Of a stretch of DNA of 64,000 bases, positions 21,811 through 38,049 are shown in pieces. Each line of letters starts with the position of its first letter. Position 1 is the stretch's first letter. The translations under genes and the position numbers were made by a program. The DNA lies in contig JAZDNO010000006.1 in NCBI GenBank assembly GCA_043799545.1, positions 82,091 to 146,090 on the forward strand. The letters are read 5' to 3'. The DNA is from Methanobacteriota archaeon. Lineage in GTDB: Archaea; Thermoplasmatota; Thermoplasmata; SG8-5; DAIRED01. Under the pieces are notes generated by a model. That model saw only the letters and a program-made list of their open reading frames with translations. It did not search any database and was not told the origin of the DNA.

Positions 21811-22836
21811 ATGCGTTCTGTGAGCGGGGACGAGCTCGAGGCGGTCGCCAGGTACGTGGCCAAGGCATCCACCGAGAATTTCGAAGGGGCCGGAGGCTCG
21901 GACGCCGAGGGGGGCATCCTCCAGGTGAAAGGGCCGATACTCCCGGAGCGATTCATTCCGATAAATGGCCCCCGCCCGTGCGAGCGCTCGGCGGCTATAG
22001 ACGGCGGTTCGGCGACGGTGCTGGATTGCGGCTCGTTCGTCGTCGGGGCAATCTCGGCCGGGCATGCGATTTCCGACGCTCACGGAGCCTGCCGGACCGA
22101 TTCGCATATCCGGCTCATTGGCGCTTCGCATGCGGACAAGAAATCGATATACCGTGAAATTTTCTCGAAAGCCATGGGAGCCGAGCCGACGGACTACCCC
22201 AAGAGCCTGGACTCGCTCGTCGGCCGCTTGCGCAACATCGCAGAGCTGGAGGAGGCCGCCAAGGTCGTTTCAGGGGCGCCGGAGGGCTCGCTCGTGATGA
22301 TTGACGGTGCGCTCTGGGCCGGCCTCGGGGACTTCGCCCCGCTGATAGAGAAGCTGGTAAAATCCGCGAGCCAGCGGAGCGTATGCCTCGCCGGCGTGAG
22401 CAAGCGAAGCATGCTCTACTTCGGATACCGCCCGCTCGTTCCATATCTCGCGCGGCTGGGGAAAAAAACGCTCGGCGACTCGCTCTGGGCGTATCCAGTC
22501 GCCTTGGCCGAGTACGAGGGCAGGACCTTCGGCGCGACGTACGTGGCGCATCTGCACCCGATGGCCCAGTTCGCCTTCAGGGTCGATGTGAACCCGATGC
22601 CTGGGTTTGCTGCGGACGAGACAATAGCAATGCTCGCAGGGCTTTCTGACGACCCGGGATATGTCGGTTACCCGTACCCCCTGGCTCGGGTGCACAACGA
22701 GGTCGCGATAGGCGAAGAGACGAGACGGGAACTGCAGATGGGACTGAAAAGGACATTGACGTCCTCGGGCGGCGACGCAGCGCTGATTGAGGAGTTCTCG
22801 CGCAACTTTCATGATATTCTTGACGGAGGGATTTGA
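21811..22836 (+). CDS. nurA: NurA 5'-3' nuclease
   Basis: The NurA-domain DGS motif (AIDGGSATVLD) is present. The gene sits immediately upstream of herA-mre11-rad50, a syntenic group known to be conserved in archaea. Confidence 0.7.
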   Translation: MRSVSGDELEAVARYVAKASTENFEGAGGSDAEGGILQVKGPILPERFIPINGPRPCERSAAIDGGSATVLDCGSFVVGAISAGHAISDAHGACRTDSHIRLIGASHADKKSIYREIFSKAMGAEPTDYPKSLDSLVGRLRNIAELEEAAKVVSGAPEGSLVMIDGALWAGLGDFAPLIEKLVKSASQRSVCLAGVSKRSMLYFGYRPLVPYLARLGKKTLGDSLWAYPVALAEYEGRTFGATYVAHLHPMAQFAFRVDVNPMPGFAADETIAMLAGLSDDPGYVGYPYPLARVHNEVAIGEETRRELQMGLKRTLTSSGGDAALIEEFSRNFHDILDGGI

Positions 22837-24378: not shown

Positions 24379-25499
24379 TGCGATTCGTTCACATCTCTGA
24401 TACCCACCTGGGGCACACGGCATACACCAAGCTGGATGAGAACGGTTACAACCAGCGCGAGGCCGACGTTTTCGACGCGTTCAAGCAGGGGGTGGACAAA
24501 GCGCTGGCCCTGAAGGTCGACGCCGTGCTACACACGGGCGACCTGTTCGATTCCATCAGGCCGTCCAACAGGGCGATGCACTTCGCCCTGGAGCAGATTC
24601 TGCGCCTCTCGGAGGCGGAGGTGCCGTTCGTGGCAATCGCCGGCAACCACTCGTCGCCGCGGCTGCGCGAAACGGGGAGCGTCTTCAGGCTCTTCGAGCA
24701 CTTGAAAGGCGTCCGCGTAGTCTATGCCGGGGCGTACGAGCAAGTGGACGTCGGGGACGTCGCCGTCCACTGCGTGCCCCACTGCGCCACCCAGGACGCT
24801 TTCGCAGAGGAAGTCCGCAAGGTGTCGCCCTTGCCTGGAAAAACCAACGTGGCCATGCTGCACTGCGGCGTCAGCGGCGTCGAGCGCTTCGCGATGGGGG
24901 AGTTCAACGAGAACCTGCTGCCGAGCGGGCAGCTGTGGCCAGAGATGGAATACATCGCGCTGGGTCATTTCCACGACAGGACAATAGTCGCCGCGAACGC
25001 GGCTTACGCCGGCTCGACCGAGCGGATGAGCTTCAACGAGGCGGGGAAGGAAAAAGGGGTCGTTGAGGTGAGCGTTCCGAGGATGTCCATGGAGTTCCAC
25101 GGACTGAAAATCAGGGAGATGGTAGACTTTGGCAAACTGGATTGCGCCGGTCTGACGAACGCCGACATCATCCGGACAGTCGAAGGGCGGCTTCTTTCCT
25201 CAAAGGCGGATGGCAAAATCATGCGCATCAGGCTGACGGGCATCCCGCGCAGCCAGGTCGACGGCCTCGACCAAAAACGCCTAAGGAGCGCGGTGAGCGG
25301 GGCGCTCCACTTCGAGCTCAGAATCGAGACGCTGGAGGAGTGCGCCGGTGCGCAGGGCACGCAGGCTGCAATCGGTGATTTGCGCAACGAGTTCGAGGCG
25401 TTCGTATCGGGGACGCCGGTAGAGCGCTTGGACAAGGCCGAGCTCCTGAAGCTCGGGCGGGGATACATCGACGGAGCCATGAACGAAGCGGGGGGCTAG
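24378..25499 (+). CDS. mre11: Mre11 DNA double-strand break repair nuclease
   Basis: Calcineurin-like phosphoesterase motifs (MRFVHISDTHLGH, GDLFD, GNHS, HCGV, LGHFH). Overlaps the herA stop by 1 nt. Confidence 0.85.
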   Translation: MRFVHISDTHLGHTAYTKLDENGYNQREADVFDAFKQGVDKALALKVDAVLHTGDLFDSIRPSNRAMHFALEQILRLSEAEVPFVAIAGNHSSPRLRETGSVFRLFEHLKGVRVVYAGAYEQVDVGDVAVHCVPHCATQDAFAEEVRKVSPLPGKTNVAMLHCGVSGVERFAMGEFNENLLPSGQLWPEMEYIALGHFHDRTIVAANAAYAGSTERMSFNEAGKEKGVVEVSVPRMSMEFHGLKIREMVDFGKLDCAGLTNADIIRTVEGRLLSSKADGKIMRIRLTGIPRSQVDGLDQKRLRSAVSGALHFELRIETLEECAGAQGTQAAIGDLRNEFEAFVSGTPVERLDKAELLKLGRGYIDGAMNEAGG

Positions 25500-25500
25500 A

Positions 25501-27921
25501 TTGATAGTCCGGGCAATCTCGCTGCGCAACTACCGCCGCTTCAGGCGCTTGGATTTGGAGCTGCCGGAAGGGGTCATAGCCATCGTCGGCCCGAACGGTT
25601 CGGGAAAGACGACTCTCGTGGAGGCCGTGGCGTGGGCGCTCTTCGGAAACGAGAGCGAGATAACCCGGGGGGACAAGAAGAGCATCATCCACCAGGGCTC
25701 CGGCAAGGGAGAAAAATGCGAGGCGACGGTCGAGTTCGAGATAGACTCGCGGCTTTATCTTGTGCGGAGGCAGATGAGCGCTTCCGGTGCCGCCACGGCC
25801 TCCCTGGAAACCGCCGGAAAATCGCTCGCCGAGGGGGCGCTGCCAGTCACCGCCCACGTTGCGAAGCTCCTGGGCATGGACTATCAGGCATTCTTCGCAT
25901 CGATTTTTGCCAGGCAGAAGGAGCTGAACGCCCTCTCGAAGCAGACGCAGGGGGAGCGCAGGGCGACCGTGATGCGCCTGCTGGGAGTTGTAGCCTTGGA
26001 CCAGGCCACGGCAAGCGCGAGGAAGGACCTGAGCCTCGCGAAGGAGAACGTCACATTCCAGCAGAGGCAGCTCGCCGATTCGGGCACGGGCAAACCTGCA
26101 ATTGATATTTGGAGAGGCGAGGCAGAGAGATGCTCCTCGGAACTCACATCCTGGAAGGCGGAGATTGAAAAGGGAGCGGAGGGCCTTGTGGCGGCCCGCG
26201 AGTCTGTCCTCAGGGCCGAGGCGCGTTTGACAAAGTCCAAGGAGAGGAAGGCGAAGCACGATAAACTCCGCGAGATACACATCGCAATCCAGAAAGACGC
26301 GGACGAGGCGTCGCGCAACGTGAAGCGCATCGAAGCGGAACTTGCGGATATTGCGCGAGAAGAGGAGATGCTGGCAAGCCTTGGGCCTCGGGAGCTGCGG
26401 TTTTCGGAAGCCAGGGAGGAGTTCGAGGAGCTGGCCAAGCTTGAGATAGCGCACGCCGAGCGCGCTGGTCTGTCGGAGCGCTTGGAGGCGCTCAAAGCGG
26501 ACCTCGAAGGGAAGTCCGCCTCCTTGAAAGGTCTGGCCAAGGAGCTGAAGAAACTGGAGGCGCTGGAAAAGGAAGCCGGCGAGCTCGACAATAAGCTGGC
26601 CAAGCTCTCAGAAGAGCGAGCGGCGCTCATTGGCAAGACCGCGTCCGAGGGGGAAAAACTGCGCGCGCTTGAGAAATCCCTTTCGGAGCTCGAGAAGAGA
26701 AAATGCGACATCTCATCCCTCGGAGCCGAAGGCAAGTGCCCGACCTGCGAGCGCCCGCTGGGGACGCACCACAAGGCCCTCATGGGCAAGACCGGGGCCG
26801 AGCTCGAGGCAAAGGAGAGGGAAGCCAAAGGCGCAATCCAAATGCTCGAATCCCTCGGCGAAGAGTCCGCCTCCCTGGAAGCGCAAATGCTCGCCCTGGA
26901 ACGACGCAAAGCGACTTTGGGGAAATCGTTGGATTCGCTCAAGAGAAAAACCGGGGAAGCGAAAGCCCTGGAATCGGAAGTCGCCGCCTTGGCGCGCTCC
27001 GCCGATGCGGCGGGCAAGAAGCTGGCAAAGCTGGATAAAATACCATTCGACGAGAAGGGATTCGCCACCCTGAAGGCGGAGCTGAGGAAGCTCGAGAAGG
27101 CGCACGAGAAATACGTCTCTCTCTCCAAGGCCGCGGAGGCCAGGCCGAAGAAGGAGAGCGCGCTAGAGGCGGCGAAGGCGTCGATGGAGAAGGCGAGTGC
27201 CGGACTTTCATCCCTGGCGAAAGAGCAGCTCTCGCTGGATTTCGATCCGGCGGTGCATTCCTCGATCGAGGCGGAGGAGCGCAAATCCCGGGATGAGGCG
27301 CACCGCCTGGCCATCGGCCTGGAGAAGGCGCGGGGCGACATGGCCGTGGCGATGGAAAAGCTGGGAAGGGCAAAGGCCGAGATATCCCGCCTGGAGGGGG
27401 TCGAGCGCGAAATAGCGGAGCTGGACAGGCGGAGGGAGTACCTCTCGCGGACTGTCGAACTGCTGGACTCGTTCAAGAGGCATGTCGTGGCGCGCATCCG
27501 GCCCGTGCTAACGGCAACGACGTCGGAGCTGCTGGACAAGCTCAGCTCCGGCAGGTACTCGCAGGTGGAGATAGACGAGGATTACGGAATCAGGGTTCTC
27601 GACGACGGCCAGGCGTTCGGGCTCGAGCGGTTCTCGGGAGGAGAGGAGGACATGGTGAACCTCTGCCTGCGCCTGGCCATCTCGCAGCTCATAGCCGAGC
27701 GCGGCGGCGCCGGGGGCCTCAACATGGTAGTGCTCGACGAGATATTCGGGAGCCAGGACCCTGGGCGCAGAAGGAGCATATTGCTGGCGCTGAACGGGCT
27801 CTCGGGCATTTTCAGGCAAATCCTTCTGATAACTCATATAGAGGACATGCGAGAGAGCGTCAGCGCGGTAGTCCAGGTGGGCGTCGGCGAGGGCGGGGCG
27901 AGCAAGGCCGAATTGGCGTGA
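25501..27921 (+). CDS. rad50: Rad50 SMC-like ATPase
   Basis: N-terminal Walker A GPNGSGKTT, long coiled coil, CPTC zinc hook at mid-length, and a C-terminal signature and Walker B (VVLDEIFGSQD). Confidence 0.85.
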   Translation: MIVRAISLRNYRRFRRLDLELPEGVIAIVGPNGSGKTTLVEAVAWALFGNESEITRGDKKSIIHQGSGKGEKCEATVEFEIDSRLYLVRRQMSASGAATASLETAGKSLAEGALPVTAHVAKLLGMDYQAFFASIFARQKELNALSKQTQGERRATVMRLLGVVALDQATASARKDLSLAKENVTFQQRQLADSGTGKPAIDIWRGEAERCSSELTSWKAEIEKGAEGLVAARESVLRAEARLTKSKERKAKHDKLREIHIAIQKDADEASRNVKRIEAELADIAREEEMLASLGPRELRFSEAREEFEELAKLEIAHAERAGLSERLEALKADLEGKSASLKGLAKELKKLEALEKEAGELDNKLAKLSEERAALIGKTASEGEKLRALEKSLSELEKRKCDISSLGAEGKCPTCERPLGTHHKALMGKTGAELEAKEREAKGAIQMLESLGEESASLEAQMLALERRKATLGKSLDSLKRKTGEAKALESEVAALARSADAAGKKLAKLDKIPFDEKGFATLKAELRKLEKAHEKYVSLSKAAEARPKKESALEAAKASMEKASAGLSSLAKEQLSLDFDPAVHSSIEAEERKSRDEAHRLAIGLEKARGDMAVAMEKLGRAKAEISRLEGVEREIAELDRRREYLSRTVELLDSFKRHVVARIRPVLTATTSELLDKLSSGRYSQVEIDEDYGIRVLDDGQAFGLERFSGGEEDMVNLCLRLAISQLIAERGGAGGLNMVVLDEIFGSQDPGRRRSILLALNGLSGIFRQILLITHIEDMRESVSAVVQVGVGEGGASKAELA

Positions 27922-28118
27922 TGGCCTACAATCGAAATGGATGTCTCAACCTGCTGTGACAACCAAGTTCAAAAGACTGCCGCGCGATGACACACCCTTA
28001 TACCCAAGTGTGCCGATTCAATCCCGAGCCACATGAGCCGCACAACCGCGCTATGCCGGGGCCTCCGCCCTTTCGCAACGAATATAACAGAGAAGGGCAA
28101 TCGCGAGGGCGTGATACG

Positions 28119-29393
28119 ATGACCGAGACGTCCGCCCTTGAGGGGTTTTACAAGAAAAGCGTCGAGGAGCGCCTGAGACTCATTGCGGAATCGGGCGGCC
28201 TTACCGAGGAAGAGGCGAAGCTGCTGGGGCAGTTCGGGGCGCTCGGCCCGGCTCTGGCCAATCGCATGATAGAGAACGTCGTCGGCGTGATGCCGGTGAC
28301 CCTGGGCTACGCGACCAATTTCCTCGTCAACGGCAGGGAGGTGCTCATCCCCATGGCGACGGAGGAGCCTTCCGTCGTCGCCGCGGCGTCGAACGCCGCC
28401 AAGATGGCAAGACCGAGCGGGGGGTTCGAAGCCAGCGCGACCGCTCCCGTCATGATAGGCCAGATACAGCTAACGGGCGTAGTCGACCCCCAATCGGCGC
28501 GGTTCGCCGTGCTGGCCAACAAAGATAAAATCATAGAGATGTCAAACGCGATGGACCCGATGCTGGTCAAGTTCGGGGGCGGAGCGAGGGACGTGGAGGC
28601 GAGGGTCCTGGACAGCCCCGTTGGCAAGCTGCTGGTCGTGCACCTCCTGGTCGATGCGCGCGACGCCATGGGCGCGAACGCGGTGAACACGATGGCCGAA
28701 GCTGTCGCCCCTTACATTGAGGAGATAACCGGCGGGAAGGTCTACCTGCGCATCCTATCAAATCTGGCGATTCACCGCCTGGCGAGGGCTCGCGCGGTCT
28801 GGAAGAAGGATTTGATTGGGGGGCCAGATGTCGTGGACGGCGTGATAAAGGCATGGGCATTCGCCGCGGCAGACCCGTTCAGGGCCGCGACGCATAACAA
28901 AGGGATAATGAACGGCATTGACGCGGTTGTGCTGGCCACAGGAAACGATTACAGGGCCATAGAGGCTGGAGCGCACGCCTACGCCGCCTGGTCCCACAAC
29001 GGGCACTACGGCCCCCTGACGAAATACGAGAAGAACAGCGACGGCGACCTGGTCGGCACGATTGAGCTGCCGATGGCCGTTGGGCTGATAGGCGGCGCGA
29101 CCGCAGTCCACCCCATAGCGAAAATCAACGTCAAAGTGCTCGGCGTGAAAACGGCGTCGGAGCTGGCGCAGATAATCGCATCTGTCGGGCTTGCGCAGAA
29201 TTTCGCCGCGCTCCGGGCGCTGTCCACGGAGGGGATACAGCGGGGCCACATGTCGTTGCACGCGCGAAACGTGGCGGCGATGGCTGGGGCGACCGGTGAC
29301 GAGGTGGAAAAGGTCGTTGACATCCTCGTCAAGGAGAAGAAGGTAAGGATAGACCGAGCGAAGGAAGTCCTCGACCGGATGAGGAAGAAATGA
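28119..29393 (+). CDS. hmgA: Hydroxymethylglutaryl-CoA reductase, class I (archaeal mevalonate pathway)
   Basis: Motifs EEPSVVAAASN, DAMGANAVNTM and GTIELPMAVG of class-I HMGR. Start placed at the ATG at 28119 (MTETSALEGF), not at the tracked start of 27987. Confidence 0.85.
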   Translation: MTETSALEGFYKKSVEERLRLIAESGGLTEEEAKLLGQFGALGPALANRMIENVVGVMPVTLGYATNFLVNGREVLIPMATEEPSVVAAASNAAKMARPSGGFEASATAPVMIGQIQLTGVVDPQSARFAVLANKDKIIEMSNAMDPMLVKFGGGARDVEARVLDSPVGKLLVVHLLVDARDAMGANAVNTMAEAVAPYIEEITGGKVYLRILSNLAIHRLARARAVWKKDLIGGPDVVDGVIKAWAFAAADPFRAATHNKGIMNGIDAVVLATGNDYRAIEAGAHAYAAWSHNGHYGPLTKYEKNSDGDLVGTIELPMAVGLIGGATAVHPIAKINVKVLGVKTASELAQIIASVGLAQNFAALRALSTEGIQRGHMSLHARNVAAMAGATGDEVEKVVDILVKEKKVRIDRAKEVLDRMRKK

Positions 29394-29401
29394 GGTGAAC
29401 G

Positions 29402-31312
29402 GTGCTTCAGGACGCTACCACGGAATCGAGCCTGGAAAAGATGAAGCTGCGCTACGCGGACAAGTTCGCCAGCGACGAGGCCATATTCAAGAACATACAC
29501 CGGGGCGACAGGATATTCATAAGCACCGGGTGCGGCGAGCCGGTCCATCTGGTCTCGCGGCTCATCGAGTACGTCAAAGACCACCCCAAGGCATTCTTCG
29601 ACGCGGAGGTTCTGCACATCTGGACGCTCGGCGTGGCGCCGTACGCGGACGAGAAATTCAAGACCAACTTCAGGCACAACGCATTCTTCATAGGCGACAG
29701 CACCCGCGAGGCAGTGAACTCGGGGATGGCCGACTACACCCCGATATTCCTCTCCCAGGTGCCGGACCTGTTCCGCAGAAAGCTCGTCCACACGGACGTG
29801 GCGCTGATACAGACTTCGATTCCCGACGCGCACGGTTACATGAGCCTCGGCGTGAGCGTCGACATCACCAAGGCAGCTTGCGAGGGGGCGAAGATGGTGG
29901 TCGCGCAGATAAATCCCAATATGCCGCGAGTCCACGGTGACACCTTCGTCCACATAGAGGACATGGACTACCTCGTCTACCACGAGGAGCCGCTCCTTGT
30001 CTACGAGCCCACGATTGTGGACGAGGTCGCCCAGAGGATAGGCAAGTACGTGGCGCGAATCGTCGAGGACGGTGACACCATCCAGGTGGGCTACGGCAGT
30101 CTCCCTAACGCGATAATGAGCAACCTTGGGGGAAAGAAGCACCTCGGGGTGCACACGGAGCTGCTCTCGGACGGGCTGGCCAGCCTCATGAGGGCGGGGG
30201 TCGTGGACAACACCATGAAGACAATAGACAAAGGGAAAACCGTGGCGACTTTCTGCATGGGCTCCAGGCACACGTACGAGTACATCCACGACAACCCCTC
30301 CGTGGAGTTCAAGCCGATAGACTACACCAACAACCCCCTCGTCATCGCGCGGAACGAGAACATGGTGGCAATCAACAGCGCCCTCCAGATAGACCTGACG
30401 GGCCAGTCGACGGCCGAATCTCTCGGCAAGACGCTCTACAGCGGCGTCGGTGGCCAGGCGGACTTCATGAGGGGGGCGGTCCTCTCCAAGGGAGGGAAGA
30501 CTATTCTGGCGTTGCAGTCGACCGCCCAGGAAGGTGCGGCCTCCCGCATCGTTCCCACGATAATGGAGGGCTCCGGAATCACGCTGGTAAGGGGCGACAT
30601 CCATTACGTGGTCACCGAGTACGGCATCGCATATCTCCACGGAAAGAACGTCCGGGAGAGGGCCATGGACCTCATCGCAATCGCGCATCCCAAGTTCCGC
30701 TCTTGGCTCATCGAGGAAGCAAAGAAGAACGGCTTCATTTACAAGGACCAGGCGTTCATACCCGGCAAAAAGGGAGAGTATCCCGAGGAGATGGAAATCT
30801 ACAAAACTACCAGGGCGGGCGAGAACATATTCATGAGGCCGGTCAAGATAAGCGACGAGCCGTTGCTGAAGGAGTTCTTCTACTCGCTCTCAGACCAGAG
30901 CATCTACCGCAGGTTCATCTCCATGCGCAAGGACATGCCGCACGAGCGCCTCCAGGAGTTCTGCATCATCGACTACACGAAGGAGGTTCTCATCCTCGCT
31001 GTGAAGCAGTCGGAGCACCAGGACCATGAGGAAATCGTCGGGGTGGGCCAGTACGGCATAGACGAGGGAGCGCACTCGGCGGAGATAGCGTTCGTCGTGA
31101 GGGACGACTACCAGAACAAGGGAGTCGGCTCCGAGCTTCTCGCGTACCTGACGCTCCTCGCGAGGAAGCAGGGGCTTCTCGGATTCACGGCAGAGGTTCT
31201 GATGGAGAACAAGCCGATGCTGCACCTTTTCGAGAGCGCTGGATTCGACGTGGACAAGCGGTTCAGCGACCAGGTTTACGAGCTGAGGATGACGTTCAGA
31301 GAGGCGAAATGA
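29402..31312 (+). CDS. Acetyl-CoA hydrolase/transferase-family domain fused to a C-terminal GNAT acetyltransferase domain
   Basis: The N-terminal about 430 aa carry CoA-transferase motifs (GDRIFISTGCGEP, SGVGGQADF). The C-terminal about 170 aa are a GNAT fold with the acetyl-CoA-binding motif QNKGVGSELL. Confidence 0.65.
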   Translation: MLQDATTESSLEKMKLRYADKFASDEAIFKNIHRGDRIFISTGCGEPVHLVSRLIEYVKDHPKAFFDAEVLHIWTLGVAPYADEKFKTNFRHNAFFIGDSTREAVNSGMADYTPIFLSQVPDLFRRKLVHTDVALIQTSIPDAHGYMSLGVSVDITKAACEGAKMVVAQINPNMPRVHGDTFVHIEDMDYLVYHEEPLLVYEPTIVDEVAQRIGKYVARIVEDGDTIQVGYGSLPNAIMSNLGGKKHLGVHTELLSDGLASLMRAGVVDNTMKTIDKGKTVATFCMGSRHTYEYIHDNPSVEFKPIDYTNNPLVIARNENMVAINSALQIDLTGQSTAESLGKTLYSGVGGQADFMRGAVLSKGGKTILALQSTAQEGAASRIVPTIMEGSGITLVRGDIHYVVTEYGIAYLHGKNVRERAMDLIAIAHPKFRSWLIEEAKKNGFIYKDQAFIPGKKGEYPEEMEIYKTTRAGENIFMRPVKISDEPLLKEFFYSLSDQSIYRRFISMRKDMPHERLQEFCIIDYTKEVLILAVKQSEHQDHEEIVGVGQYGIDEGAHSAEIAFVVRDDYQNKGVGSELLAYLTLLARKQGLLGFTAEVLMENKPMLHLFESAGFDVDKRFSDQVYELRMTFREAK

Positions 31313-33435
31313 TGGGCCGCGGCGCCGACGTCAGGACGCTTTTCGAGCCGCGCTCCGTTGCCATTTTCGGAGCCACGCCCGACAGGGATAAAATCGGCTT
31401 CAAGATACTGGACAACTTAGTGTCGGGGGGATTCAAAGGCGAGGTGTACCCCATCAACCCCAAGGGGGGCGAGGTGCTCGGGCTGAAGATTTACAAATCT
31501 CTGGACGAGGTCGAGGGCGATGTGGACATGGGCATCATCGCCATTCCCGCCAAGTTCGTCTTCGACGCGTTGAGGGCGTGCGCCATGAAGGGAGTCAGGC
31601 ACGTCCCTATAATATCGTCCGGTTTCAGCGAGATCGGCAACGGGGAGGAGGAGCGGGCGATGGCCCGGTTCGCCAGGGAGAACGGAATGCGCATCCTCGG
31701 ACCGAACATCTTCGGCATTTATTCCCGCTCCTCGTCTTTCAACGCGACGTTCGGTCCTAAGGACGTTACGCCCGGCGGCGTCGCAATAATCACCCAGAGC
31801 GGCGCGCTCGGCATCGCCATGATTGGAAAGTCGGCGGTGGAGAACGTCGGCCTTTCGTGCGTGGTTTCCATGGGTAACAAGGCGGACATCGACGAGGCGG
31901 ACCTGCTGGATTACATCGCCGAGGACGACAACACAAAGATTGTCCTGATGTACATCGAGGGCGTCCAAAACGGAGAGAAGCTCATAGCCTCTCTGCGGAA
32001 GTTCACGATGAGAAAACCCGTCGTCGTCATCAAGTCCGGGCGCTCGAAGCGCGGGGCGATGGCCGCGGCCTCGCACACCGGCTCCCTCGCAGGGAGCGAC
32101 GCGATATTCGACGCTGTGATGAGGCAGTGCGGCGTAATGCGCGCGGAAACTTTGAAGGACGCTTTCAACTGGTGCAAGTTCATCTCGTATTCAGCCACGC
32201 CGAAGGGAGAGAACGCAGTGATTGTCACAAACGGCGGGGGAATCGGGGTGCTCGCTACAGATGCTTGCGAAAAACACGGCGTCAGGCTCTACGACGACCA
32301 GCAAGTCCTGAAAAACGCCTTCGGAAAGGTCACGCCCGAGTTCGGCTCGACCAAAAACCCGATAGACCTCACTGGCCAGGCGACGCCGGAGTTCTACGAC
32401 GACGCCCTGCAGGCCGGCATAGAAGGAAGAACGATAGATTCGGTCGTAGGGCTGTATTGCGAGACGGCGGTTTTCGACCCGGAGGGGCTAAAGCGTATGA
32501 TTGCCGACGCGTATCGCAAATACGCGAAAGCCGGCAAGCCAGTCGTATTCTCGATTGTCGGCGGTCACAAGGTCGAGACATGCATCAGCTCGCTGAGCAA
32601 AGACGGGATTCCAATATTTCCCGAGGTCTACGAGGCAGTGTCGTGCCTCGGTGCGTCCTACGCCCACCGCAAGCGAGTCTCGGAGTCGGAGGAGCCGATG
32701 GCCGAGGTGGACATCGACGTCGACGCGATAGGAGAAGTCGCCTCCAAAGCCCGCGCGGAAGGGCGTTACTTCCTGCTATCCAACGAGGCGCAGGAGGTCA
32801 TGCGCGCCGCAGGAATCCAGCTCCCGAAGAGCCGCATCGCGAAGAGCATGGAAGAGGCAGTCCGATTCGCCAAGGGGATAGGTTATCCGGTCGTGATGAA
32901 GGTCGTTTCGAAGGACATCGTCCACAAGAGCGACGTGGGGGGTGTGGCGCTGGGCATAGACGACGAGCGCGAGGTCGTCGACGCATACCAGGCGATAATG
33001 CAGAGTTGCAAGTCCCACGATCCGACCGCGGTCATAGAGGGCATACAGGTCGACGAGATGGTGCGGGACGGGACGGAGATAATCGTAGGCGCACGCCGGG
33101 ACGGGGGTTTCGGTCCAGTGGTCATGTGCGGCCTCGGGGGCATCTACGTCGAGGTGATGAAAGACGTTGCCTTCAGGGCATTCCCCCTGAGCAGGAAGGA
33201 GGCGATGTCGATGATAAAGGAGATAAAAACCTACCAGCTCCTCCTGGGCGCAAGGGGCGAGGAGCGAAAGGACATCGAAGGGGTAATAGAAACCCTTATC
33301 AAACTCGGAACGATAATCAAGAGATGCCGGGGCATCTCCGACATAGAGGTCAACCCCGTGATGGTATACGAGAGCGGGAAAGGAGTGAAAGCCGTCGACG
33401 TGAGGATTCTCCTTTCGAAGCAGGAGGCGGGTTAG
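31309..33435 (+). CDS. ADP-forming acetyl-CoA synthetase, fused alpha-beta (CoA-binding/succinyl-CoA-synthetase-like domain plus ATP-grasp domain)
   Basis: N-terminal CoA-binding Rossmann domain (SVAIFGATPDRDKIGFKIL), the SCS-like phosphohistidine region (AAASHTGSLAG), and a C-terminal ATP-grasp domain (GYPVVMKVVSKDIVHKSDVGGV). Confidence 0.75.
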   Translation: MMGRGADVRTLFEPRSVAIFGATPDRDKIGFKILDNLVSGGFKGEVYPINPKGGEVLGLKIYKSLDEVEGDVDMGIIAIPAKFVFDALRACAMKGVRHVPIISSGFSEIGNGEEERAMARFARENGMRILGPNIFGIYSRSSSFNATFGPKDVTPGGVAIITQSGALGIAMIGKSAVENVGLSCVVSMGNKADIDEADLLDYIAEDDNTKIVLMYIEGVQNGEKLIASLRKFTMRKPVVVIKSGRSKRGAMAAASHTGSLAGSDAIFDAVMRQCGVMRAETLKDAFNWCKFISYSATPKGENAVIVTNGGGIGVLATDACEKHGVRLYDDQQVLKNAFGKVTPEFGSTKNPIDLTGQATPEFYDDALQAGIEGRTIDSVVGLYCETAVFDPEGLKRMIADAYRKYAKAGKPVVFSIVGGHKVETCISSLSKDGIPIFPEVYEAVSCLGASYAHRKRVSESEEPMAEVDIDVDAIGEVASKARAEGRYFLLSNEAQEVMRAAGIQLPKSRIAKSMEEAVRFAKGIGYPVVMKVVSKDIVHKSDVGGVALGIDDEREVVDAYQAIMQSCKSHDPTAVIEGIQVDEMVRDGTEIIVGARRDGGFGPVVMCGLGGIYVEVMKDVAFRAFPLSRKEAMSMIKEIKTYQLLLGARGEERKDIEGVIETLIKLGTIIKRCRGISDIEVNPVMVYESGKGVKAVDVRILLSKQEAG

Positions 33436-34470
33436 ATGGAAAAGCTGGTCATAGCGTCTGTCAGGAAGAGCGCCGGGAAAACGTCCGTCATCATCGGAAT
33501 GGCAAAGTCGTTGAAGGGGAAGCCGGGATACATGAAGCCCTTCGGGGACCGCCTTCTGTACAAGAAGAAGCGCCTGTGGGATTACGATGCCGCGCTGGCG
33601 ACCAACATGCTGGGGCTGGATCAGGACCCGGAAAACATCACCATCGGCTTCGAGCACTCCAAGCTGAGGTACATGTACGACGAGAAGGCAACGAAGGATA
33701 AGCTGGTCGAGATATCCGCGTGCGCCAGCAAAGGGAAGGAAACGCTCTTTGTCGAGGCCGGAAGGGACCTGTCGTACGGCGTTTCTGTTGGACTGGATGC
33801 GATTTCAATCGCTAAGGCGATAGACGGCAAGGCCGTCGTAATAGTCAGCGGCGACCCAGAGTCGGTCGTGGACGACGTGACCTTCCTGGACAAGTACGTG
33901 AACGCCAAGGGCGCGCGCCTCGCGGGAGTGATAATCAACAAGGTACAGGACGTGCAGGATTTCGGGGACACCTACCTGCCTCGCATCGAGGGAGTGGGCA
34001 TACCGGTCCTCGGGATGCTCCCCCACCACCCGGAGCTGTCCAAATTCTCCGTGAGCTACCTGGCCGACCGCCTTTTTGCGAAGGTCATCACAGGCGAGGG
34101 GAACATGGGCCGGACAGTGGACAACGTATTCATCGGCGCCATGTCGGCGACGGCCGCGATGCAGAACGCGCAGTTCAAGAAGGGCGGGAAGCTCATCATC
34201 ACCAGCGGGGACAGGAGCGACATGATTGTGGCGGCGCTGGAAACGGACACGGCAGCGGTGATAATCACCAACAACGTGCTCCCGTCTTCGAGCATCATAT
34301 CAAAGGCCGCCGAGCGGAACGTGCCGCTGCTGGTCGTGCCCGGGGACACCTACGGCACCGCGAGGCAAATCGAGGGCATGGAACCCCTTCTCACCAAGGA
34401 CGATACGGGAAAGGCGGAGCTGCTGGCAGAGAGCGTGAGGAAGAACATCAACATGAAGGCGCTGCTGTAA
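33436..34470 (+). CDS. Phosphotransacetylase N-terminal-domain-like protein (BioD-like P-loop plus DRTGG domain), no catalytic Pta domain
   Basis: N-terminal P-loop-like VIASVRKSAGKTSV and the DRTGG-type motif ITSGDRSDMIVAALE. Length 344 aa. Starts 1 nt after the acetyl-CoA synthetase stop. Confidence 0.55.
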   Translation: MEKLVIASVRKSAGKTSVIIGMAKSLKGKPGYMKPFGDRLLYKKKRLWDYDAALATNMLGLDQDPENITIGFEHSKLRYMYDEKATKDKLVEISACASKGKETLFVEAGRDLSYGVSVGLDAISIAKAIDGKAVVIVSGDPESVVDDVTFLDKYVNAKGARLAGVIINKVQDVQDFGDTYLPRIEGVGIPVLGMLPHHPELSKFSVSYLADRLFAKVITGEGNMGRTVDNVFIGAMSATAAMQNAQFKKGGKLIITSGDRSDMIVAALETDTAAVIITNNVLPSSSIISKAAERNVPLLVVPGDTYGTARQIEGMEPLLTKDDTGKAELLAESVRKNINMKALL

Positions 34471-34522
34471 ATCTTTATCACATCTCGTTCAATGGCTCGG
34501 GACTCGAAGATAACCAGTGCCC

Positions 34523-35152
34523 CTAGTCCATAAAAATGTATCCGGACACGATGTGGATGTCGAGCTCCACGGTACCCGAAGGAACGGCATCTGAGCTTCT
34601 CAGAGGGTTGTCCGTGTTGTCGAACACTACGATTAGGTTGTACGATCCCGCCGTCTGAAATTCGCAGGCCTGGGAGAGCGTGTCCTCGTCCTCCCACATC
34701 TCGGTTGCCGAGAACACGGCAGGCGTGTAATTGCCGTACGTCCCGTCGTACTGCGGCGCGTTCATCAGATACACGTCGACGTTCGAGCCAGATGTCACGT
34801 TCATGAATATCCATACCTTAGAGGGGGACCAGCCGGCGTCTACTTTGAAGTGCGCCCCCTCCGAGAGTGTGACGCTGCCTTCAAAGACATCGCTGGTCCC
34901 GCCCTGGTCGAAGCTGGACAGAGCGACGAAGAAGACGGCCGCGGGGATGACGATCATGATTAGCAGTAAAACCACTGCGACTATCGTGGTTCCCTTGATG
35001 CGGTCGTCCCTCGGCGGTTGGAGCGGCGGGTACGGGGGGTAGGGCGCGTAATACGGCGGGTAGTAGTAGGAAGGCGCCTGGATTGGCTGCTGCAGCGGTT
35101 CCTGAACCGGCATTTGACTAACGTCCGGACCCACATTGTTTTCACCGGTCAT
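34523..35152 (-). CDS. Single-pass membrane protein with a P/Y-rich N-terminus and an extracytoplasmic beta-rich domain
   Basis: YYYPPYYAPYPPYPP low-complexity N-terminus, one TM helix (TIVAVVLLLIMIVIPAAVFFV), and a C-terminal about 140-aa domain. No recognisable enzymatic motifs. Confidence 0.35.
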   Translation of the reverse strand: MTGENNVGPDVSQMPVQEPLQQPIQAPSYYYPPYYAPYPPYPPLQPPRDDRIKGTTIVAVVLLLIMIVIPAAVFFVALSSFDQGGTSDVFEGSVTLSEGAHFKVDAGWSPSKVWIFMNVTSGSNVDVYLMNAPQYDGTYGNYTPAVFSATEMWEDEDTLSQACEFQTAGSYNLIVVFDNTDNPLRSSDAVPSGTVELDIHIVSGYIFMD

Positions 35153-35197
35153 GCATCATCAATGCTCCGCTGCGTTATTAAATTTTATGGATTCAGC

Positions 35198-35662
35198 TCA
35201 CTCTATCATGTTCTGGTCAGGCCTGTCGACGACCCTGTCGCAGTAGAGGCACCTGAGCTTCACTGGCTCCTTCGACTCGACTGTGAAAGAGGGCTCTATC
35301 GGCTCGTTGAGGTTGGAGATGCAGGACTGGTTGGGGCAGCGCACTATCCCTTTAACGAGCTCAGGGAGATCCGGCGTGTACTTCTTGATGACCTCGAAGT
35401 TGCGGATGATGCTTATCGTGGCGTGCGGCGCCACGAGCGCAATCTGGTTCACCTCGCGTTGCTTCAGCTCCCTGCCCTCGACCTTGACGATGTCCTTCCA
35501 CTTCTGCTTCTTGCTCGGGGCCTTGATGAGGACCGTCACGGTCCATTCCGGCGCACCCGAGACGAGCCCCATTATCTTCAGAACCTTGAGCGCGTTCCCG
35601 CATTCGATGTGGTCGATTACAGTCCCGTTCTCAATCGGCGGGACCTTCATGTCCTTGCCCAT
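35198..35662 (-). CDS. pyrI: Aspartate carbamoyltransferase regulatory subunit
   Basis: C-terminal Zn domain with CPNQSC...CLYC cysteines. Immediately downstream of pyrB. Confidence 0.85.
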   Translation of the reverse strand: MGKDMKVPPIENGTVIDHIECGNALKVLKIMGLVSGAPEWTVTVLIKAPSKKQKWKDIVKVEGRELKQREVNQIALVAPHATISIIRNFEVIKKYTPDLPELVKGIVRCPNQSCISNLNEPIEPSFTVESKEPVKLRCLYCDRVVDRPDQNMIE

Positions 35663-36592
35663 TCAGTCCACCTCCCCCAGGACCAGTGCCAGGAGCGCCA
35701 TTCTCACAGGCACGCCGTAGAACGCCTGCTTGAAGTACATCGCATGCTTCGTCGAATCGACGTCCGGCGATATCTCCGTCACCCTCGGCAGGGGATGCAT
35801 GACAATGAGCTTCTCACCGGCGCACTTGAGCAGTTCCGCGTTGACCTGGTACGTGCCTGCGACGCGCTGGTATTCGTTCGGGTCGGGGAACCGCTCCTTC
35901 TGTATCCTCGTCACGTAAAGGGCGTTCGCCTCCTTCACAGCCTCGTCCAGCCTCGTCGTGGTTTTCAGCTCGGCTCCCTGGGCGTTCAGCCTGTCCATTA
36001 TCTCCTTCGGCATCTGCAGTTCCTTCGGGGCCACGAAGATTAGCTTTGCGCCGAACATCGCCAGCGCGTACGCAAGGGAGTGCACGGTCCTGCCGTACTT
36101 GAGGTCGCCGACCATGGCTATGGTCTTGCCGTCTATGGCGCCGAGCTCCTCCCGGAGGGTGAACAAATCGAGCATCGTCTGCGTCGGATGCTGGCCAGCG
36201 CCGTCGCCGGCGTTGATGACCGGCTTGGAGCAGAACTCCGCGGCAAGCCTGGCCGCGCCCTCGTGCGGGTGCCTAAGCACCATCGCGTCCGAGTAAGCCT
36301 CGGCCATCTTCGCCGTGTCGGCGAGAGTCTCGCCCTTCTTCATCGATGTGACGTTCGGGTCTGCGAAACCTATGTATCGTCCGCCGAGCCTGCAAATCGC
36401 GCTCTGGAAAGAGAGCCTGGTGCGCGTGCTGGGTTCGTAGAAGAACGTCGACAGAACGTGGTTCCCCAGCATGTTGCTGCGCTTCTTTCCCTCGGCGATG
36501 GGCAGCATCTCCCTCGCGACGTCGAGGATGTGCTCTATATCCTGGCGCGAAAATTCCCGAATGGACACGATGTCCCGGCCCTTGAAGCTCAT
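35663..36592 (-). CDS. pyrB: Aspartate carbamoyltransferase catalytic subunit
   Basis: STRTR carbamoyl-phosphate-binding motif, HPxQ and HPLP motifs. 309 aa. Confidence 0.9.
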   Translation of the reverse strand: MSFKGRDIVSIREFSRQDIEHILDVAREMLPIAEGKKRSNMLGNHVLSTFFYEPSTRTRLSFQSAICRLGGRYIGFADPNVTSMKKGETLADTAKMAEAYSDAMVLRHPHEGAARLAAEFCSKPVINAGDGAGQHPTQTMLDLFTLREELGAIDGKTIAMVGDLKYGRTVHSLAYALAMFGAKLIFVAPKELQMPKEIMDRLNAQGAELKTTTRLDEAVKEANALYVTRIQKERFPDPNEYQRVAGTYQVNAELLKCAGEKLIVMHPLPRVTEISPDVDSTKHAMYFKQAFYGVPVRMALLALVLGEVD

Positions 36593-36675
36593 GTCAACCG
36601 GGAAAGGTGTAAGGTCATTTACGATATTACCCTTTGTGAGGAAGCGTTAAATCAGGACTTGCCTTTACGAGCACG

Positions 36676-38049
36676 ATGCCTGAAGCGCAGAAGCCGAGCG
36701 GTTTTGAGAAAGCCTCGACGGTGCTGGCCCCGACGCTCAACACCCTCGTTTTTATAATAATCGCCCGTGAGCTGGGCGCCGAATCCCTGGGCTCCGTGGC
36801 GCTGTATCTGTCTTTGGCGGCTTGCATAACGCTCTCCTTCGACCTCGGTCACGCCTGGGGAGGTGCGGGCGGGAGATCTTTGCGCGCGCTGGTGCACCTC
36901 TCGTTCACGATGGCGGGTTTCGTGCTGGCGGCCGTGGGATGGCTGGTCGTCGGATGCGACTGCATCATCGCGCTTGGGCTTTACGCCGCTTACCACGGCG
37001 CGACTTCCGCTGCAATCGCCATTTCGCAGGATGGCGGAACCTCGGCGAAGGCGGGGCTGGCAGACGGAATCTTGCGCGTCGCAATTCTCGCGCCGCTTAT
37101 TTACGTATTTTGGGAAGGGGGATCAGGACCCTTGACCATTCCCATAGCTTTCATCTTCGCGGTTGGGGGGTTGGCGGCGCTGGCCGTTGCAACAGCTAGA
37201 TACACTCCGCTCAGCATCTCGGCTGCGCGCTCCGAGCTGGGCGAGGCATCTGGCGGCGCGTTTGCTTTCTCGATTCTCGCCGGCCTGATGATGTGGGTCG
37301 ACAAGCCCTTGCTTTACCTCCTGGATGGAGAAGTCTCGCTCGGTTTCTACTTTGCAGTCCAGCGAACAGTTGTCTTCATCGGTGCGGCTGGCGTGGTGAT
37401 TGCTGGCATGGTGTCGGGCAGGTTTTCTTTGATTGACCGAGAAGCGGGCAAGCGTTTGGCGACGCTGATGGAAAGGTACGCCTCGTTGTGCGTCATCCCC
37501 ATGGGAGCGTTCTACATCGCCTTTTCCAGGCAAATCGTGGCGACCTTCTTCGGGATGGGCTATGCCGCGCACCACGCGCTCATGTATCCGATGGCGTTTG
37601 CCGGAGTTTTTACCGCACTGGCATCTCCGTCTTTATCGTGGCTTGCGAGCGATTCCAAGTGGCGCGCACTTGCCGTTGCCGCTGGCTCAGCACTAACGGT
37701 ATTAGTATGCCTCGCAGTGGCGTTGCTGGAGTCGGAGATCATCGAAGACCCGTCGACAGCGGCGGCGGTCGGCTGCGCCATTTCATCGCTCGCTCTCTAC
37801 GTGTCGGTGCGCGCGATTCTCCTGCGCGATGGCGTGCGGATGCATGGAAACATGCCCAAGCACGTCGCATGCGCCGTTGGAATGGCCATCTCTTTGCATT
37901 GGGTCTCAACCAGCTTCGCAGCATTGGGGCTCGCAGAGCTGGTGTTTTTAGCGCTCGCAGGCGTCCTTGTCTACGGTTTGCTGCTCTACCTCTTCGGAGA
38001 ATTCATGCAGGGTGAATACGGCGAGTTCAAGGCATTGCGCGGGGTGTGA
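36676..38049 (+). CDS. Polytopic membrane protein, possibly a MOP/Wzx-type flippase-like transporter
   Basis: 457 aa with about 12 to 14 hydrophobic helices and few charged residues. The assignment is by topology only. Confidence 0.35.
   Translation: MPEAQKPSGFEKASTVLAPTLNTLVFIIIARELGAESLGSVALYLSLAACITLSFDLGHAWGGAGGRSLRALVHLSFTMAGFVLAAVGWLVVGCDCIIALGLYAAYHGATSAAIAISQDGGTSAKAGLADGILRVAILAPLIYVFWEGGSGPLTIPIAFIFAVGGLAALAVATARYTPLSISAARSELGEASGGAFAFSILAGLMMWVDKPLLYLLDGEVSLGFYFAVQRTVVFIGAAGVVIAGMVSGRFSLIDREAGKRLATLMERYASLCVIPMGAFYIAFSRQIVATFFGMGYAAHHALMYPMAFAGVFTALASPSLSWLASDSKWRALAVAAGSALTVLVCLAVALLESEIIEDPSTAAAVGCAISSLALYVSVRAILLRDGVRMHGNMPKHVACAVGMAISLHWVSTSFAALGLAELVFLALAGVLVYGLLLYLFGEFMQGEYGEFKALRGV

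What the first reader, a model, noticed from the sequence alone, without database searches (positions are those of the whole stretch)
27987..34470. Acetyl-CoA node: HMG-CoA reductase, then a CoA-transferase-GNAT fusion, then a fused ADP-forming acetyl-CoA synthetase, then a stand-alone Pta-N-terminal-like (DRTGG) protein
Bacterial protein lysine acetyltransferase Pat is an (NDP-forming acyl-CoA synthetase-like domain)-GNAT fusion. Here the GNAT domain is fused to an acetyl-CoA hydrolase/transferase-family domain and sits immediately upstream of a genuine fused alpha-beta ADP-forming acetyl-CoA synthetase (4-nt overlap). A free-standing homolog of the regulatory N-terminal domain of phosphotransacetylase (P-loop plus DRTGG) follows 1 nt later. 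This looks like a split or rearranged Pat-like acetylation module wired to acetate/acetyl-CoA interconversion. The CoA-transferase-GNAT architecture is unfamiliar to me.
Basis: partly seen in the sequence, partly recalled or inferred. Interest (0 to 1): 0.5.

Follow-up and report, generated by a model that had tools for sequence, protein, structure and literature searches.

The report
CoA-transferase–Pat acetyltransferase fusion operon
The unusual gene is real: a CoA-transferase fused to a Pat-type protein acetyltransferase, usually encoded with an ATP-forming acyl-CoA synthetase and a phosphotransacetylase-like regulator; it is common in anaerobic archaea and bacteria, yet I found no study of it.

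Summary
All four ORFs exist at the stated coordinates. The 636-aa fusion is one uninterrupted ORF. Its two domains and the linker are about equally conserved in homologues.

It is not rare. More than 8000 database proteins match it, at least 567 GTDB species genomes encode it, and about 20 phylum-level labels of Bacteria and Archaea carry it at 65-72% identity. The window is from a Thermoplasmatota archaeon.

The catalytic residues are kept:
- the CoA-transferase glutamate E253, equivalent to AbfT E238, and GGQADF;
- the GNAT glutamate E561, equivalent to PatZ E809, and QNKGVG;
- the ACD phosphohistidine H256.

The GNAT's closest solved relatives are all Pat-family protein lysine acetyltransferases.

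The block fusion → ACD → BioD/DRTGG protein is conserved in about 38 of 59 loci with enough flanking sequence, and the three proteins co-diverge. HMG-CoA reductase accompanies the block only in the closest relative, so it is not part of the module. Where ACD is absent, AMP-forming Acs and acetate channels recur just upstream.

Best reading: an undescribed architecture of regulated Pat-like acetyltransferase. Its sensor domain is a probably active CoA-transferase, and it is built into an acyl-CoA/acetate/ATP module. The target (Acs, ACD or the enzyme itself) is inferred, not shown. No paper found describes it.

The parts
29402..31312 (+). CoA-transferase–GNAT fusion protein (636 aa, GTG start preceded by GGTGA); the core of the finding
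   Evidence: Single ORF. Pfam finds AcetylCoA_hydro, AcetylCoA_hyd_C and Acetyltransf_1. The top 120 homologues all have the same architecture at 69-94% identity.
29429..30721 (+). Family-I CoA-transferase domain (residues ~10-440) of the 4-hydroxybutyrate/butyryl-CoA:acetate CoA-transferase subfamily. The catalytic Glu253 codon is at 30158-30160 and GGQADF is at 30449-30466.
   Evidence: PDB matches 3eh7 at 1.5e-124, 9vag (Thermus TtCoAT) at 3.4e-122 and 3gk7 AbfT at 1.7e-109. E253 aligns with AbfT E238. E253, G350, G351, D354 and F355 are invariant in 59 of 59 sequences.
30770..31297 (+). Pat-type GNAT domain (residues ~457-632). The catalytic Glu561 codon is at 31082-31084 and the AcCoA motif QNKGVG is at 31112-31129.
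   Evidence: PDB matches 4nxy at 4.8e-20, PatZ 9it0 at 6.5e-19, and 4orf, 4ava and 3f8k. E561 aligns with PatZ E809. NCBIfam NF058543 'acetyltransferase Pat' scores 1.7e-21.
31309..33435 (+). Fused alpha-beta NDP(ADP)-forming acyl-CoA synthetase (ACD, 708 aa). The phosphohistidine His256 codon is at 32074-32076. It overlaps the fusion gene by 4 nt.
   Evidence: Pfam domains. PDB matches 8wzu at 5.5e-143 and ckcACD alpha/beta 4xyl at 2.7e-124 and 7.7e-60, with 'AASHTGSLAGS' aligned to the catalytic loop. It lies immediately downstream of the fusion in ~38 of 59 loci.
33436..34470 (+). Stand-alone BioD-like (AAA_26, residues 3-203) plus DRTGG (residues 209-314) protein. It is homologous to the regulatory N-terminal region of class II phosphotransacetylase and has no catalytic PTA_PTB domain.
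   Evidence: Pfam and NCBIfam. GKT at 14-16 and SGDR are invariant in 43 orthologues. It follows ACD in 34-36 loci. Three of three homologues sampled on long contigs lie in the same block.
27987..29393 (+). Class II HMG-CoA reductase. It is a neighbour, probably co-transcribed here, but it is not a conserved member of the module.
   Evidence: TIGR00532 scores 510 bits. It is found beside the fusion only in L003, the closest relative at 89% identity, and in none of the other 81 loci.

Best explanation
The region holds a conserved, horizontally spread three-gene operon. Gene 1 fuses a family-I CoA-transferase to a Pat-family GNAT. The transferase is probably active and would move CoA between acetyl-CoA and short-chain acids. 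Gene 2 is a true ADP-forming acyl-CoA synthetase (acyl-CoA + ADP + Pi <-> acid + ATP + CoA). Gene 3 is a free-standing copy of the allosteric N-terminal domain of class II phosphotransacetylase. Shown: the architecture, the retention of catalytic residues in all enzymatic domains, conservation of the operon, co-divergence of the three proteins, and the Pat-family affinity of the GNAT. Inferred: CoAT and ACD together turn short-chain acyl-CoAs into ATP plus free acid, or run in reverse. The fused GNAT is a protein lysine acetyltransferase. Its activity would be tied to the acyl-CoA/CoA state seen by the CoA-transferase domain, as acetyl-CoA binding to the N-terminal domain controls the GNAT in PatZ. 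Its most likely substrate is the AMP-forming acyl-CoA synthetase (Acs), so that acetate made by ACD is not re-activated at ATP cost. The DRTGG protein most likely acts as an allosteric subunit of ACD. On this reading the fusion is a further architecture of regulated bacterial and archaeal KAT, beside the five described types.
For: The fusion is real and under strong selection. It is colinear in all 120 top hits. Mean pairwise identity is 74% for CoAT, 79% for the linker and 70.5% for GNAT. It occurs in at least 567 species genomes across about 20 phylum labels. Catalytic residues: E253 equals AbfT E238 and GGQADF is invariant; E561 equals PatZ E809 and QNKGVG is present; ACD has His256 in SHTGS. 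Every solved relative of the GNAT below E=1e-6 is a Pat-family protein acetyltransferase. Operon evidence: ACD follows the fusion in ~38 of 59 loci with at least 3.3 kb downstream, and the DRTGG protein comes next; the reverse walk from DRTGG homologues gives the same block 3 of 3 times; junctions have a 4-nt overlap and a 0-nt gap. Mantel correlations of the distance matrices are r=0.56, 0.56 and 0.86, each with p=0.001. Link to Acs: a bona fide Acs (ACAS_N + AMP-binding) lies just upstream on the same strand in 6 independent loci. A GPR1/FUN34/YaaH acetate channel lies between Acs and the fusion in 4 of them, and an MFS transporter in one. Precedents: a stand-alone homologue of this CoAT domain (Thermus TT_C1083, E=3e-122) is an acetyl-CoA:SCFA CoA-transferase and the major substrate of a GNAT KAT (bioRxiv 10.1101/2025.10.31.685773). 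In PatZ, acetyl-CoA binding to the regulatory domain allosterically controls the GNAT and helps to shape the Acs pocket (PMC12184503).
Against: There is no biochemical evidence for any member. No acetylation target is identified, and the window contains neither an Acs nor a deacetylase. Acs adjacency is seen in only about 7% of loci. About one third of the loci lack ACD and DRTGG, so the fusion can act without them. The substrate specificity of CoAT and ACD is unassigned, because all NCBIfam equivalog cut-offs are missed. The AlphaFold model was too weak (pLDDT 69, pTM 0.61) to say how the domains communicate. Mantel correlation can arise from shared transfer history alone. Many host labels come from MAG bins.
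Confidence: 0.55

Rival explanations
1. The module regulates itself. The fused GNAT mainly acetylates its own CoA-transferase domain (in cis or within the oligomer), or its operon partners ACD or the DRTGG protein. This would change partner binding rather than catalysis, as in Thermus.
For: In Thermus the homologous CoAT is the dominant KAT substrate. Acetylation of its N-terminal Lys5 modulates binding of a regulatory partner and not activity. TtCoAT Lys6 aligns with fusion Lys21, which is invariant in 59 of 59 fusions but absent from AbfT and 3eh7. Tight translational coupling and co-divergence with ACD and DRTGG fit a complex.
Against: No acetylation data exist. The main Thermus site is Lys5 rather than Lys6, and the authors consider it specific to Thermus. 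The invariant lysines of ACD (K28, K191, K242, K531, K540) sit in motifs general to the ACD/SCS family. One third of the fusions lack the partners.
Confidence: 0.2
2. The CoA-transferase domain is only a ligand sensor (a pseudoenzyme), like the His-less ACD-like domain of Pat. The protein would then be simply a Pat variant with a different acetyl-CoA-binding module.
For: All described regulated KATs use a non-catalytic sensor domain (PMC8556138; PMC12184503).
Against: The catalytic Glu and the GGQxDF oxyanion motif are invariant. The domain is 74% identical across phyla, more conserved than the neighbouring true enzyme ACD at 57%. Pat lost its catalytic His; this domain lost nothing recognisable.
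Confidence: 0.12
3. The protein is a bifunctional metabolic enzyme. The CoAT domain makes an acyl-CoA that the GNAT uses to N-acylate a small molecule such as an amino acid or polyamine. ACD supplies or recycles the acyl-CoA. No protein regulation would be involved.
For: GNATs are chemically versatile. Fusions of consecutive enzymes are common. ACD, CoAT and GNAT could form a short pathway.
Against: All close solved relatives of the GNAT, and its best NCBIfam model, are protein acetyltransferases. It carries the Pat-type N-terminal extension (EYP...RP...D...Y.RF) that aligns with PatZ residues 709-760. No biosynthetic genes are conserved around it.
Confidence: 0.08
4. It is an artefact or a chance neighbourhood: a missed stop or frameshift creates a false fusion, and the gene order has no meaning.
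For: None found.
Against: The ORF is continuous. The same fusion occurs in thousands of independent assemblies. Divergent subfamilies with only 31-38% GNAT identity keep the same architecture. Gene order is conserved.
Confidence: 0.01

Closest known systems
Pat/PatZ (type I) and Streptomyces PatA (type II) protein lysine acetyltransferases
   Same: The GNAT domain is homologous (PatZ 9it0 at 6.5e-19, 4nxy at 4.8e-20). It shares the catalytic Glu (E561/E809), the AcCoA motif and the Pat-type N-terminal extension. Both have a large CoA-thioester-binding domain attached to the GNAT. Both are associated with acetate/acetyl-CoA metabolism and with Acs genes. The gene order ...GNAT][ACD... resembles the GNAT→ACD-like order of type II.
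   Different: Here the attached domain is a family-I CoA-transferase with an intact active site. In Pat it is a His-less NDP-forming acyl-CoA-synthetase-like domain. The ACD homologue is a separate, catalytically competent protein. The nearest GNAT relatives are CoAT-fused or short proteins, not Pat I or II.
Type III regulated GNATs (cAMP-Pat of mycobacteria, ACT-GNAT, NADP-binding MxKat)
   Same: A metabolite-binding domain lies N-terminal to a Pat-family GNAT (4orf and 4ava hit at about 1e-10). The logic is the same: acetylation is coupled to a metabolic signal (PMC8556138).
   Different: The sensor here is about 440 aa and an enzyme fold with retained catalytic residues, not a small ligand-binding domain. 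The distribution is in anaerobes and archaea rather than actinobacteria and myxobacteria.
Thermus thermophilus TtCoAT (TT_C1083) / KAT TT_C1711 / ADLP system
   Same: The CoAT is a close homologue (9vag at 3.4e-122), an acetyl-CoA:short-chain-acid CoA-transferase. A functional link between a GNAT KAT and this CoAT has been shown experimentally.
   Different: In Thermus the KAT and the CoAT are separate, unlinked genes, and the partner is an alanine-dehydrogenase-like NAD+ sensor. No fusion, ACD or DRTGG protein is involved.
[quoted passage not shown] Korarchaeum 4xyl, Nitrosopumilus 4HB-CoA ligase 8wzu)
   Same: It has the same five-subdomain architecture and the same catalytic His loop.
   Different: It misses the NCBIfam equivalog cut-offs (TIGR02717 508 against 567; NF045493 580 against 1300), so its substrate is unassigned. 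It is encoded with a KAT fusion and a Pta-N-like protein, a context I did not find described.
N-terminal regulatory domain of class II phosphotransacetylase; stand-alone DVU3031 of Desulfovibrio vulgaris
   Same: It has the BioD-like AAA_26 plus DRTGG architecture and covers positions 3-367 of the Pta model. DVU3031 is likewise a free AAA+DRTGG protein, encoded beside pta-ack, of unknown function (PMC4481167).
   Different: It has no PTA_PTB catalytic domain. Here it is paired with ACD rather than Pta/Ack.

Membership tests
Pat-family GNAT protein lysine acetyltransferase | GNAT fold with the acetyl-CoA-binding motif Q/R-x-x-G-x-G/A | tested here: met
   Acetyltransf_1 scores 45.7 bits against a cut-off of 20.7. 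QNKGVG lies at 571-576. G574 is invariant, and Q571 and G576 are at least 90% conserved.
Pat-family GNAT protein lysine acetyltransferase | Catalytic glutamate equivalent to PatZ E809 / MsPat E234 | tested here: met
   E561 aligns with PatZ residue 809 and with the AEVAF motif of 4nxy and 4orf. It is at least 90% conserved.
Pat-family GNAT protein lysine acetyltransferase | Acetylates the active-site lysine of AMP-forming acyl-CoA synthetases or other proteins | not testable with these tools
   Only genomic context is available: Acs lies upstream in 6 independent loci.
Type I/II Pat (PatZ, SePat, SlPatA) | GNAT fused to an NDP-forming acyl-CoA-synthetase-like regulatory domain that lacks the catalytic His | tested here: not met
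   The fused domain is AcetylCoA_hydro/AcetylCoA_hyd_C. The ACD homologue is a separate gene and keeps His256.
Family-I CoA-transferase, AcetylCoA_hydro / 4-hydroxybutyrate CoA-transferase subfamily | Both Pfam halves score above the gathering cut-off, and the protein aligns full-length to solved members | tested here: met
   Scores are 167.5 and 215.1 bits. 3eh7, 9vag and 3gk7 align over ~430 residues.
Family-I CoA-transferase, AcetylCoA_hydro / 4-hydroxybutyrate CoA-transferase subfamily | Catalytic glutamate (AbfT E238, recalled from Macieira et al. 2009) and the GxGGQxDF motif | tested here: met
   E253 aligns with residue 238 of 3gk7. E253, G348, G350, G351, D354 and F355 are invariant in 59 of 59 sequences.
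Butyryl-CoA:acetate CoA-transferase (TIGR03948 equivalog) | Score above the curated equivalog cut-off | tested here: not met
   288 bits against a cut-off of 674.8, so substrate specificity cannot be assigned.
NDP-forming acyl-CoA synthetase (ACD) | CoA_binding, Succ_CoA_lig, Ligase_CoA_2 and ATP-grasp_5 domains, with the phosphohistidine in the S-H-T-G loop | tested here: met
   His256 lies in AASHTGSLAGS, aligned to ckcACD and 8wzu.
Acetate-specific ACD (TIGR02717) / 4-hydroxybutyrate-CoA ligase (NF045493) | Score above the curated cut-off | tested here: not met
   508 against 567.15, and 580.5 against 1300.
Phosphotransacetylase (class II Pta) | C-terminal PTA_PTB catalytic domain | tested here: not met
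   Only AAA_26 and DRTGG are found. The match to PRK05632 ends at model position 367 of 708, at 102.6 bits against a cut-off of 418.
Class II HMG-CoA reductase | TIGR00532 score above the cut-off | tested here: met
   510.7 bits against 259.95.

The most novel reading that the evidence does not exclude
The three proteins form one complex that acts as an acyl-CoA/acetate homeostat. Turnover or ligand occupancy of a catalytically active CoA-transferase would directly gate a covalently attached Pat-type acetyltransferase. That enzyme might use whichever acyl-CoA the transferase has just made, so the acyl mark would report which short-chain acid is present. It would acylate Acs, ACD or the Pta-N-like subunit and so set the direction of ATP-coupled acetate flux. 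The conserved ...GNAT][ACD... junction with its 4-nt overlap would then be the unfused ancestral state of the type II and type I Pat enzymes.
Probability: 0.2. Interest if true: 0.75.

Novelty: new variant of a known kind. Interest (0 to 1): 0.55.

Why it matters
Regulated lysine acetyltransferases of bacteria are sorted into five architectures. None of them has a CoA-transferase as partner domain, and very little is known for archaea and for uncultured anaerobic phyla. This fusion is widespread there. It is more conserved than its enzyme neighbours, and it keeps both active sites. It would therefore be the first regulated KAT in which the 'sensor' is itself an enzyme of the pathway being controlled.

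It also gives two orphan problems a concrete handle. The first is how ADP-forming acetyl-CoA synthetases are regulated; I know of no described regulator. The second is what free-standing Pta-N-like (BioD/DRTGG) proteins do. All three proteins are soluble and small enough for direct reconstitution, so the hypotheses can be tested cheaply.

Tried and rejected
- AlphaFold2 of the fusion with a 59-sequence alignment gave pLDDT 69 and pTM 0.61, with disordered stretches at 331-351, 372-398 and 450-464. This is too weak to read domain packing, so I did not use it and did not run a fold search.
- The sigma-70 promoter and intrinsic-terminator scan of 27700-35200 gave counts no higher than shuffled sequence. 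It is also not appropriate for an archaeon.
- An exact look-up of the window's own fusion protein found no record.
- Nine literature searches found no description of a CoA-transferase–GNAT fusion or of an ACD/DRTGG pairing. Subscription-only papers are not covered.
- I looked for a Pat recognition motif (P-x4-G-K) in the fusion, ACD and DRTGG proteins and found none.
- I looked for module-specific invariant lysines in ACD. Only lysines in general family motifs turned up.
- I considered a link to 4-hydroxybutyrate, because the best PDB names for both CoAT and ACD mention it. I rejected this as a naming bias, since all equivalog cut-offs are missed.
- I considered HMGR as part of the module and rejected it.
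- Two divergent fusion subfamily members (L086, L087) were not next to ACD, so the operon link may be specific to this subfamily.
Full report
**Observation.** ORF listing and profile searches confirm four co-directional genes.
- 27987-29393: class II HMG-CoA reductase (TIGR00532, 510 bits).
- 29402-31312: a 636-aa protein with AcetylCoA_hydro (residues 10-197), AcetylCoA_hyd_C (287-440) and a GNAT (about 457-632).
- 31309-33435: a fused alpha-beta NDP-forming acyl-CoA synthetase (ACD).
- 33436-34470: an AAA_26 + DRTGG protein that covers the N-terminal half of the class II Pta model and lacks PTA_PTB.

The junctions are ATGA (a 4-nt overlap) and TAG followed directly by ATG. HMGR and the fusion are 8 nt apart. 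Upstream lies a NurA-HerA-Mre11-Rad50 operon. The closest genome locus is a Thermoplasmatota MAG (L003, 89% identity), so the window is archaeal.

**Is the fusion real?** Yes. The ORF is continuous. All 120 listed hits share the architecture at 69-94% identity over 97-100% of the query. In a 59-sequence alignment the CoAT part, the linker and the GNAT part have mean pairwise identities of 74%, 79% and 70.5%. Of these, 567 were confirmed. They span:
- Archaea: Thermoplasmatota, Theionarchaea, Iainarchaeota and Woesearchaeota.
- Bacteria: WOR-3, Bipolaricaulota, Planctomycetota, Desulfobacterota/Syntrophales, Actinomycetota, Chloroflexota, Gemmatimonadota, Cyanobacteria, Spirochaetota/Leptospira, Thermotogota, Nitrospirota, Zixibacteria, Eisenbacteria, Aerophobetes and Dethiobacteria.

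All sit at 65-72% identity. I then searched the GNAT domain alone against 1.84 billion cluster representatives. Among the best 150, 28 are proteins of 585-663 aa with the GNAT at the C-terminus, and two are about 960 aa. Pfam confirmed CoAT+GNAT in 5 of 5 divergent ~630-aa proteins tested (GNAT identity 31-38%) and Fer4+CoAT+GNAT in both long ones. The architecture is therefore old and diversified. Within the best 150, no hit has a length and GNAT position that fit Pat type I or II.

**Active sites.**
- E253 aligns with residue 238 of Clostridium aminobutyricum AbfT (3gk7). I recall that residue as the catalytic glutamate. GGQADF (350-355) is also present, and these residues are invariant.
- The GNAT aligns with 4nxy/4u5y, which I recall to be the S. 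lividans PatA GNAT domain; the depositors' name is 'Acyl-CoA synthetase'. It also aligns with E. coli PatZ (9it0/9isq), mycobacterial Pat (4orf, 4ava) and Sulfolobus Pat (3f8k).
- E561 falls on PatZ E809, and QNKGVG is the acetyl-CoA loop.
- ACD has His256 in AASHTGSLAGS, aligned to the phosphohistidine loop of ckcACD and 8wzu. Unlike the Pat N-domain, it looks like a working enzyme.
- The DRTGG protein keeps an invariant GKT (14-16) and SGDR.

Substrate specificities cannot be assigned, because all NCBIfam equivalog cut-offs are missed.

**Neighbourhood.**
- I ran tblastn and ORF clustering on 82 loci. ACD (54-62% identity) follows the fusion directly in about 38 of the 59 loci that have at least 3.3 kb downstream, and the DRTGG protein (45-60%) follows ACD in nearly all of these.
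- The ORF-based count was 35 with ACD and 34 with both. L040 and L045 were rescued by tblastn, and in L029 two genes are inserted.
- No other gene family recurs in more than 9 loci.
- HMGR appears only in L003.
- Starting instead from DRTGG homologues (JGI name: 'BioD-like phosphotransacetylase family protein'), three of three long contigs show the same block.
- Distance matrices of the three proteins over 33 loci are correlated: fusion-ACD r=0.56, fusion-DRTGG r=0.56 and ACD-DRTGG r=0.86, with Mantel p=0.001 each.
- The fusion evolves most slowly, at 69.6% mean identity against 56.8% and 51.5%.
- In ACD-less loci the recurrent neighbours are a bona fide AMP-forming Acs directly upstream on the same strand (six independent loci: L001/2, L018, L030, L043, L061, L081), with an acetate channel (GPR1/FUN34/YaaH) or an MFS transporter in between. 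This is the classical Pat substrate and context.

**Literature.**
- The five-type classification of bacterial KATs (PMC8556138) and the 2025 PatZ structure paper with its AFDB-wide survey of GNAT types (PMC12184503) list NDP-forming-synthetase-like, cAMP, ACT, NADP, none and tandem-GNAT partner domains. Neither lists a CoA-transferase.
- A 2025 preprint shows that the Thermus stand-alone homologue of this CoAT domain is an acetyl-CoA:SCFA CoA-transferase. It is also the main substrate of a GNAT KAT. Acetylation of its N-terminal Lys5 relieves inhibition by a bound NAD+-sensing pseudoenzyme. The 9vag sequence begins ..YRKKL, consistent with that protein.
- D. vulgaris DVU3031 is a free AAA+DRTGG protein beside pta-ack, with no assigned role.
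- No paper found describes the fusion or the three-gene block.

**Interpretation.**
- Shown: a conserved operon couples a probably active CoA-transferase fused to a Pat-family GNAT, a true ACD and a Pta-N-like protein.
- Inferred from the known chemistry of these enzyme families: CoAT plus ACD convert short-chain acyl-CoAs to acids with ATP gain, or the reverse.
- Inferred by analogy with PatZ and supported by Acs adjacency: the GNAT is a KAT whose activity depends on the CoA-thioester state of its partner domain, and it switches off Acs so that acetate is not re-activated.
- Inferred from homology to the allosteric N-domain of class II Pta, which responds to NADH, ATP, pyruvate and PEP (Campos-Bermudez 2010 and Brinsmade 2007, both from memory), and from the r=0.86 co-divergence: the DRTGG protein regulates ACD.

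The rivals are self- or partner-acetylation (Thermus precedent; invariant K21 aligns with TtCoAT K6), a purely sensory CoAT, and small-molecule acylation. An artefact is excluded.

**Verdict.** The 'Pat-like module' reading is partly right, but HMGR does not belong to the module. The architecture is abundant in databases but, as far as the searchable literature shows, uncharacterised. I class it as a new variant of a known kind, regulated Pat-family KATs. It is of moderate to good interest and cheap to test.

Noticed in passing
window 21811-27921 (+): A complete archaeal DNA-end-resection operon, NurA (21811-22836), HerA (22837-24378), Mre11 (24378-25499) and Rad50 (25501-27921). It has overlapping or abutting genes and ends 65 nt before the HMGR gene.
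   Followed up: partly
window 12459-19222 (-): Two very large TPR-repeat proteins of 1032 and 914 aa. The first has an N-terminal Mrr_cat restriction-endonuclease domain, a zinc ribbon and a C-terminal HhH. Next to them is a 311-aa protein with only a weak Tubulin/FtsZ GTPase match (6.6e-10), and then an MFS transporter.
   Followed up: no
window 56229-62990 (-): A 2253-aa ORF with CARDB repeats and several C-terminal zinc-ribbon/double-zinc-ribbon domains. It sits beside a cluster with two T2SSE ATPases and two T2SSF membrane proteins (50674-56178), which looks like a type IV pilus or archaellum-like system.
   Followed up: no
window 35018-38049 (+) and 47333-49957 (-): ORFs of 341, 225, 457 and 874 aa have no Pfam match at the thresholds used. 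The first three lie directly downstream of the module.
   Followed up: no
window 503-5091 (+): A Fer4/FAD/NAD oxidoreductase (642 aa), a [NiFe]-hydrogenase large subunit (490 aa) and a HycI maturation protease. Together they suggest a cytoplasmic hydrogenase, which fits an anaerobic fermentative lifestyle.
   Followed up: no
L085 8291-9415 (-): An alanine-dehydrogenase-family gene lies immediately beside the fusion-ACD-DRTGG block in one locus. In Thermus, the regulatory partner of the homologous CoA-transferase is an alanine-dehydrogenase-like pseudoenzyme. This is a single case and could be coincidence.
   Followed up: no
L021 12076-13581, L027 11941-13464, L042 13432-14910: Glycerol kinase follows the DRTGG gene in three Desulfobacterota-type loci, with an XRE/cupin regulator upstream. 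Glycerol kinase is the reported substrate of the GNAT Pat2 in Haloferax (PMC12607858, title and abstract only).
   Followed up: no
L041, L046, L047, L084 (Spirochaetota-type loci); L052 4914-8863: The DRTGG gene is tandemly duplicated after ACD in several spirochaete loci. One Dehalococcoidales locus carries two tandem copies of the fusion gene itself, at 64% and 68% identity to the window protein.
   Followed up: no
P0292 (967 aa), P0347 (960 aa; L087 6001-8883): Longer relatives carry an N-terminal ~330-aa extension with 4Fe-4S cluster motifs in front of CoAT-GNAT. This suggests a redox-sensing version of the same fusion. L087 is not next to an ACD.
   Followed up: partly
L083 1961-4643; L029 3901-6622: In two loci an AMP-binding acyl-CoA ligase and a family-III CoA-transferase are inserted between the fusion and ACD. 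This adds further acyl-CoA-handling enzymes to the block.
   Followed up: no
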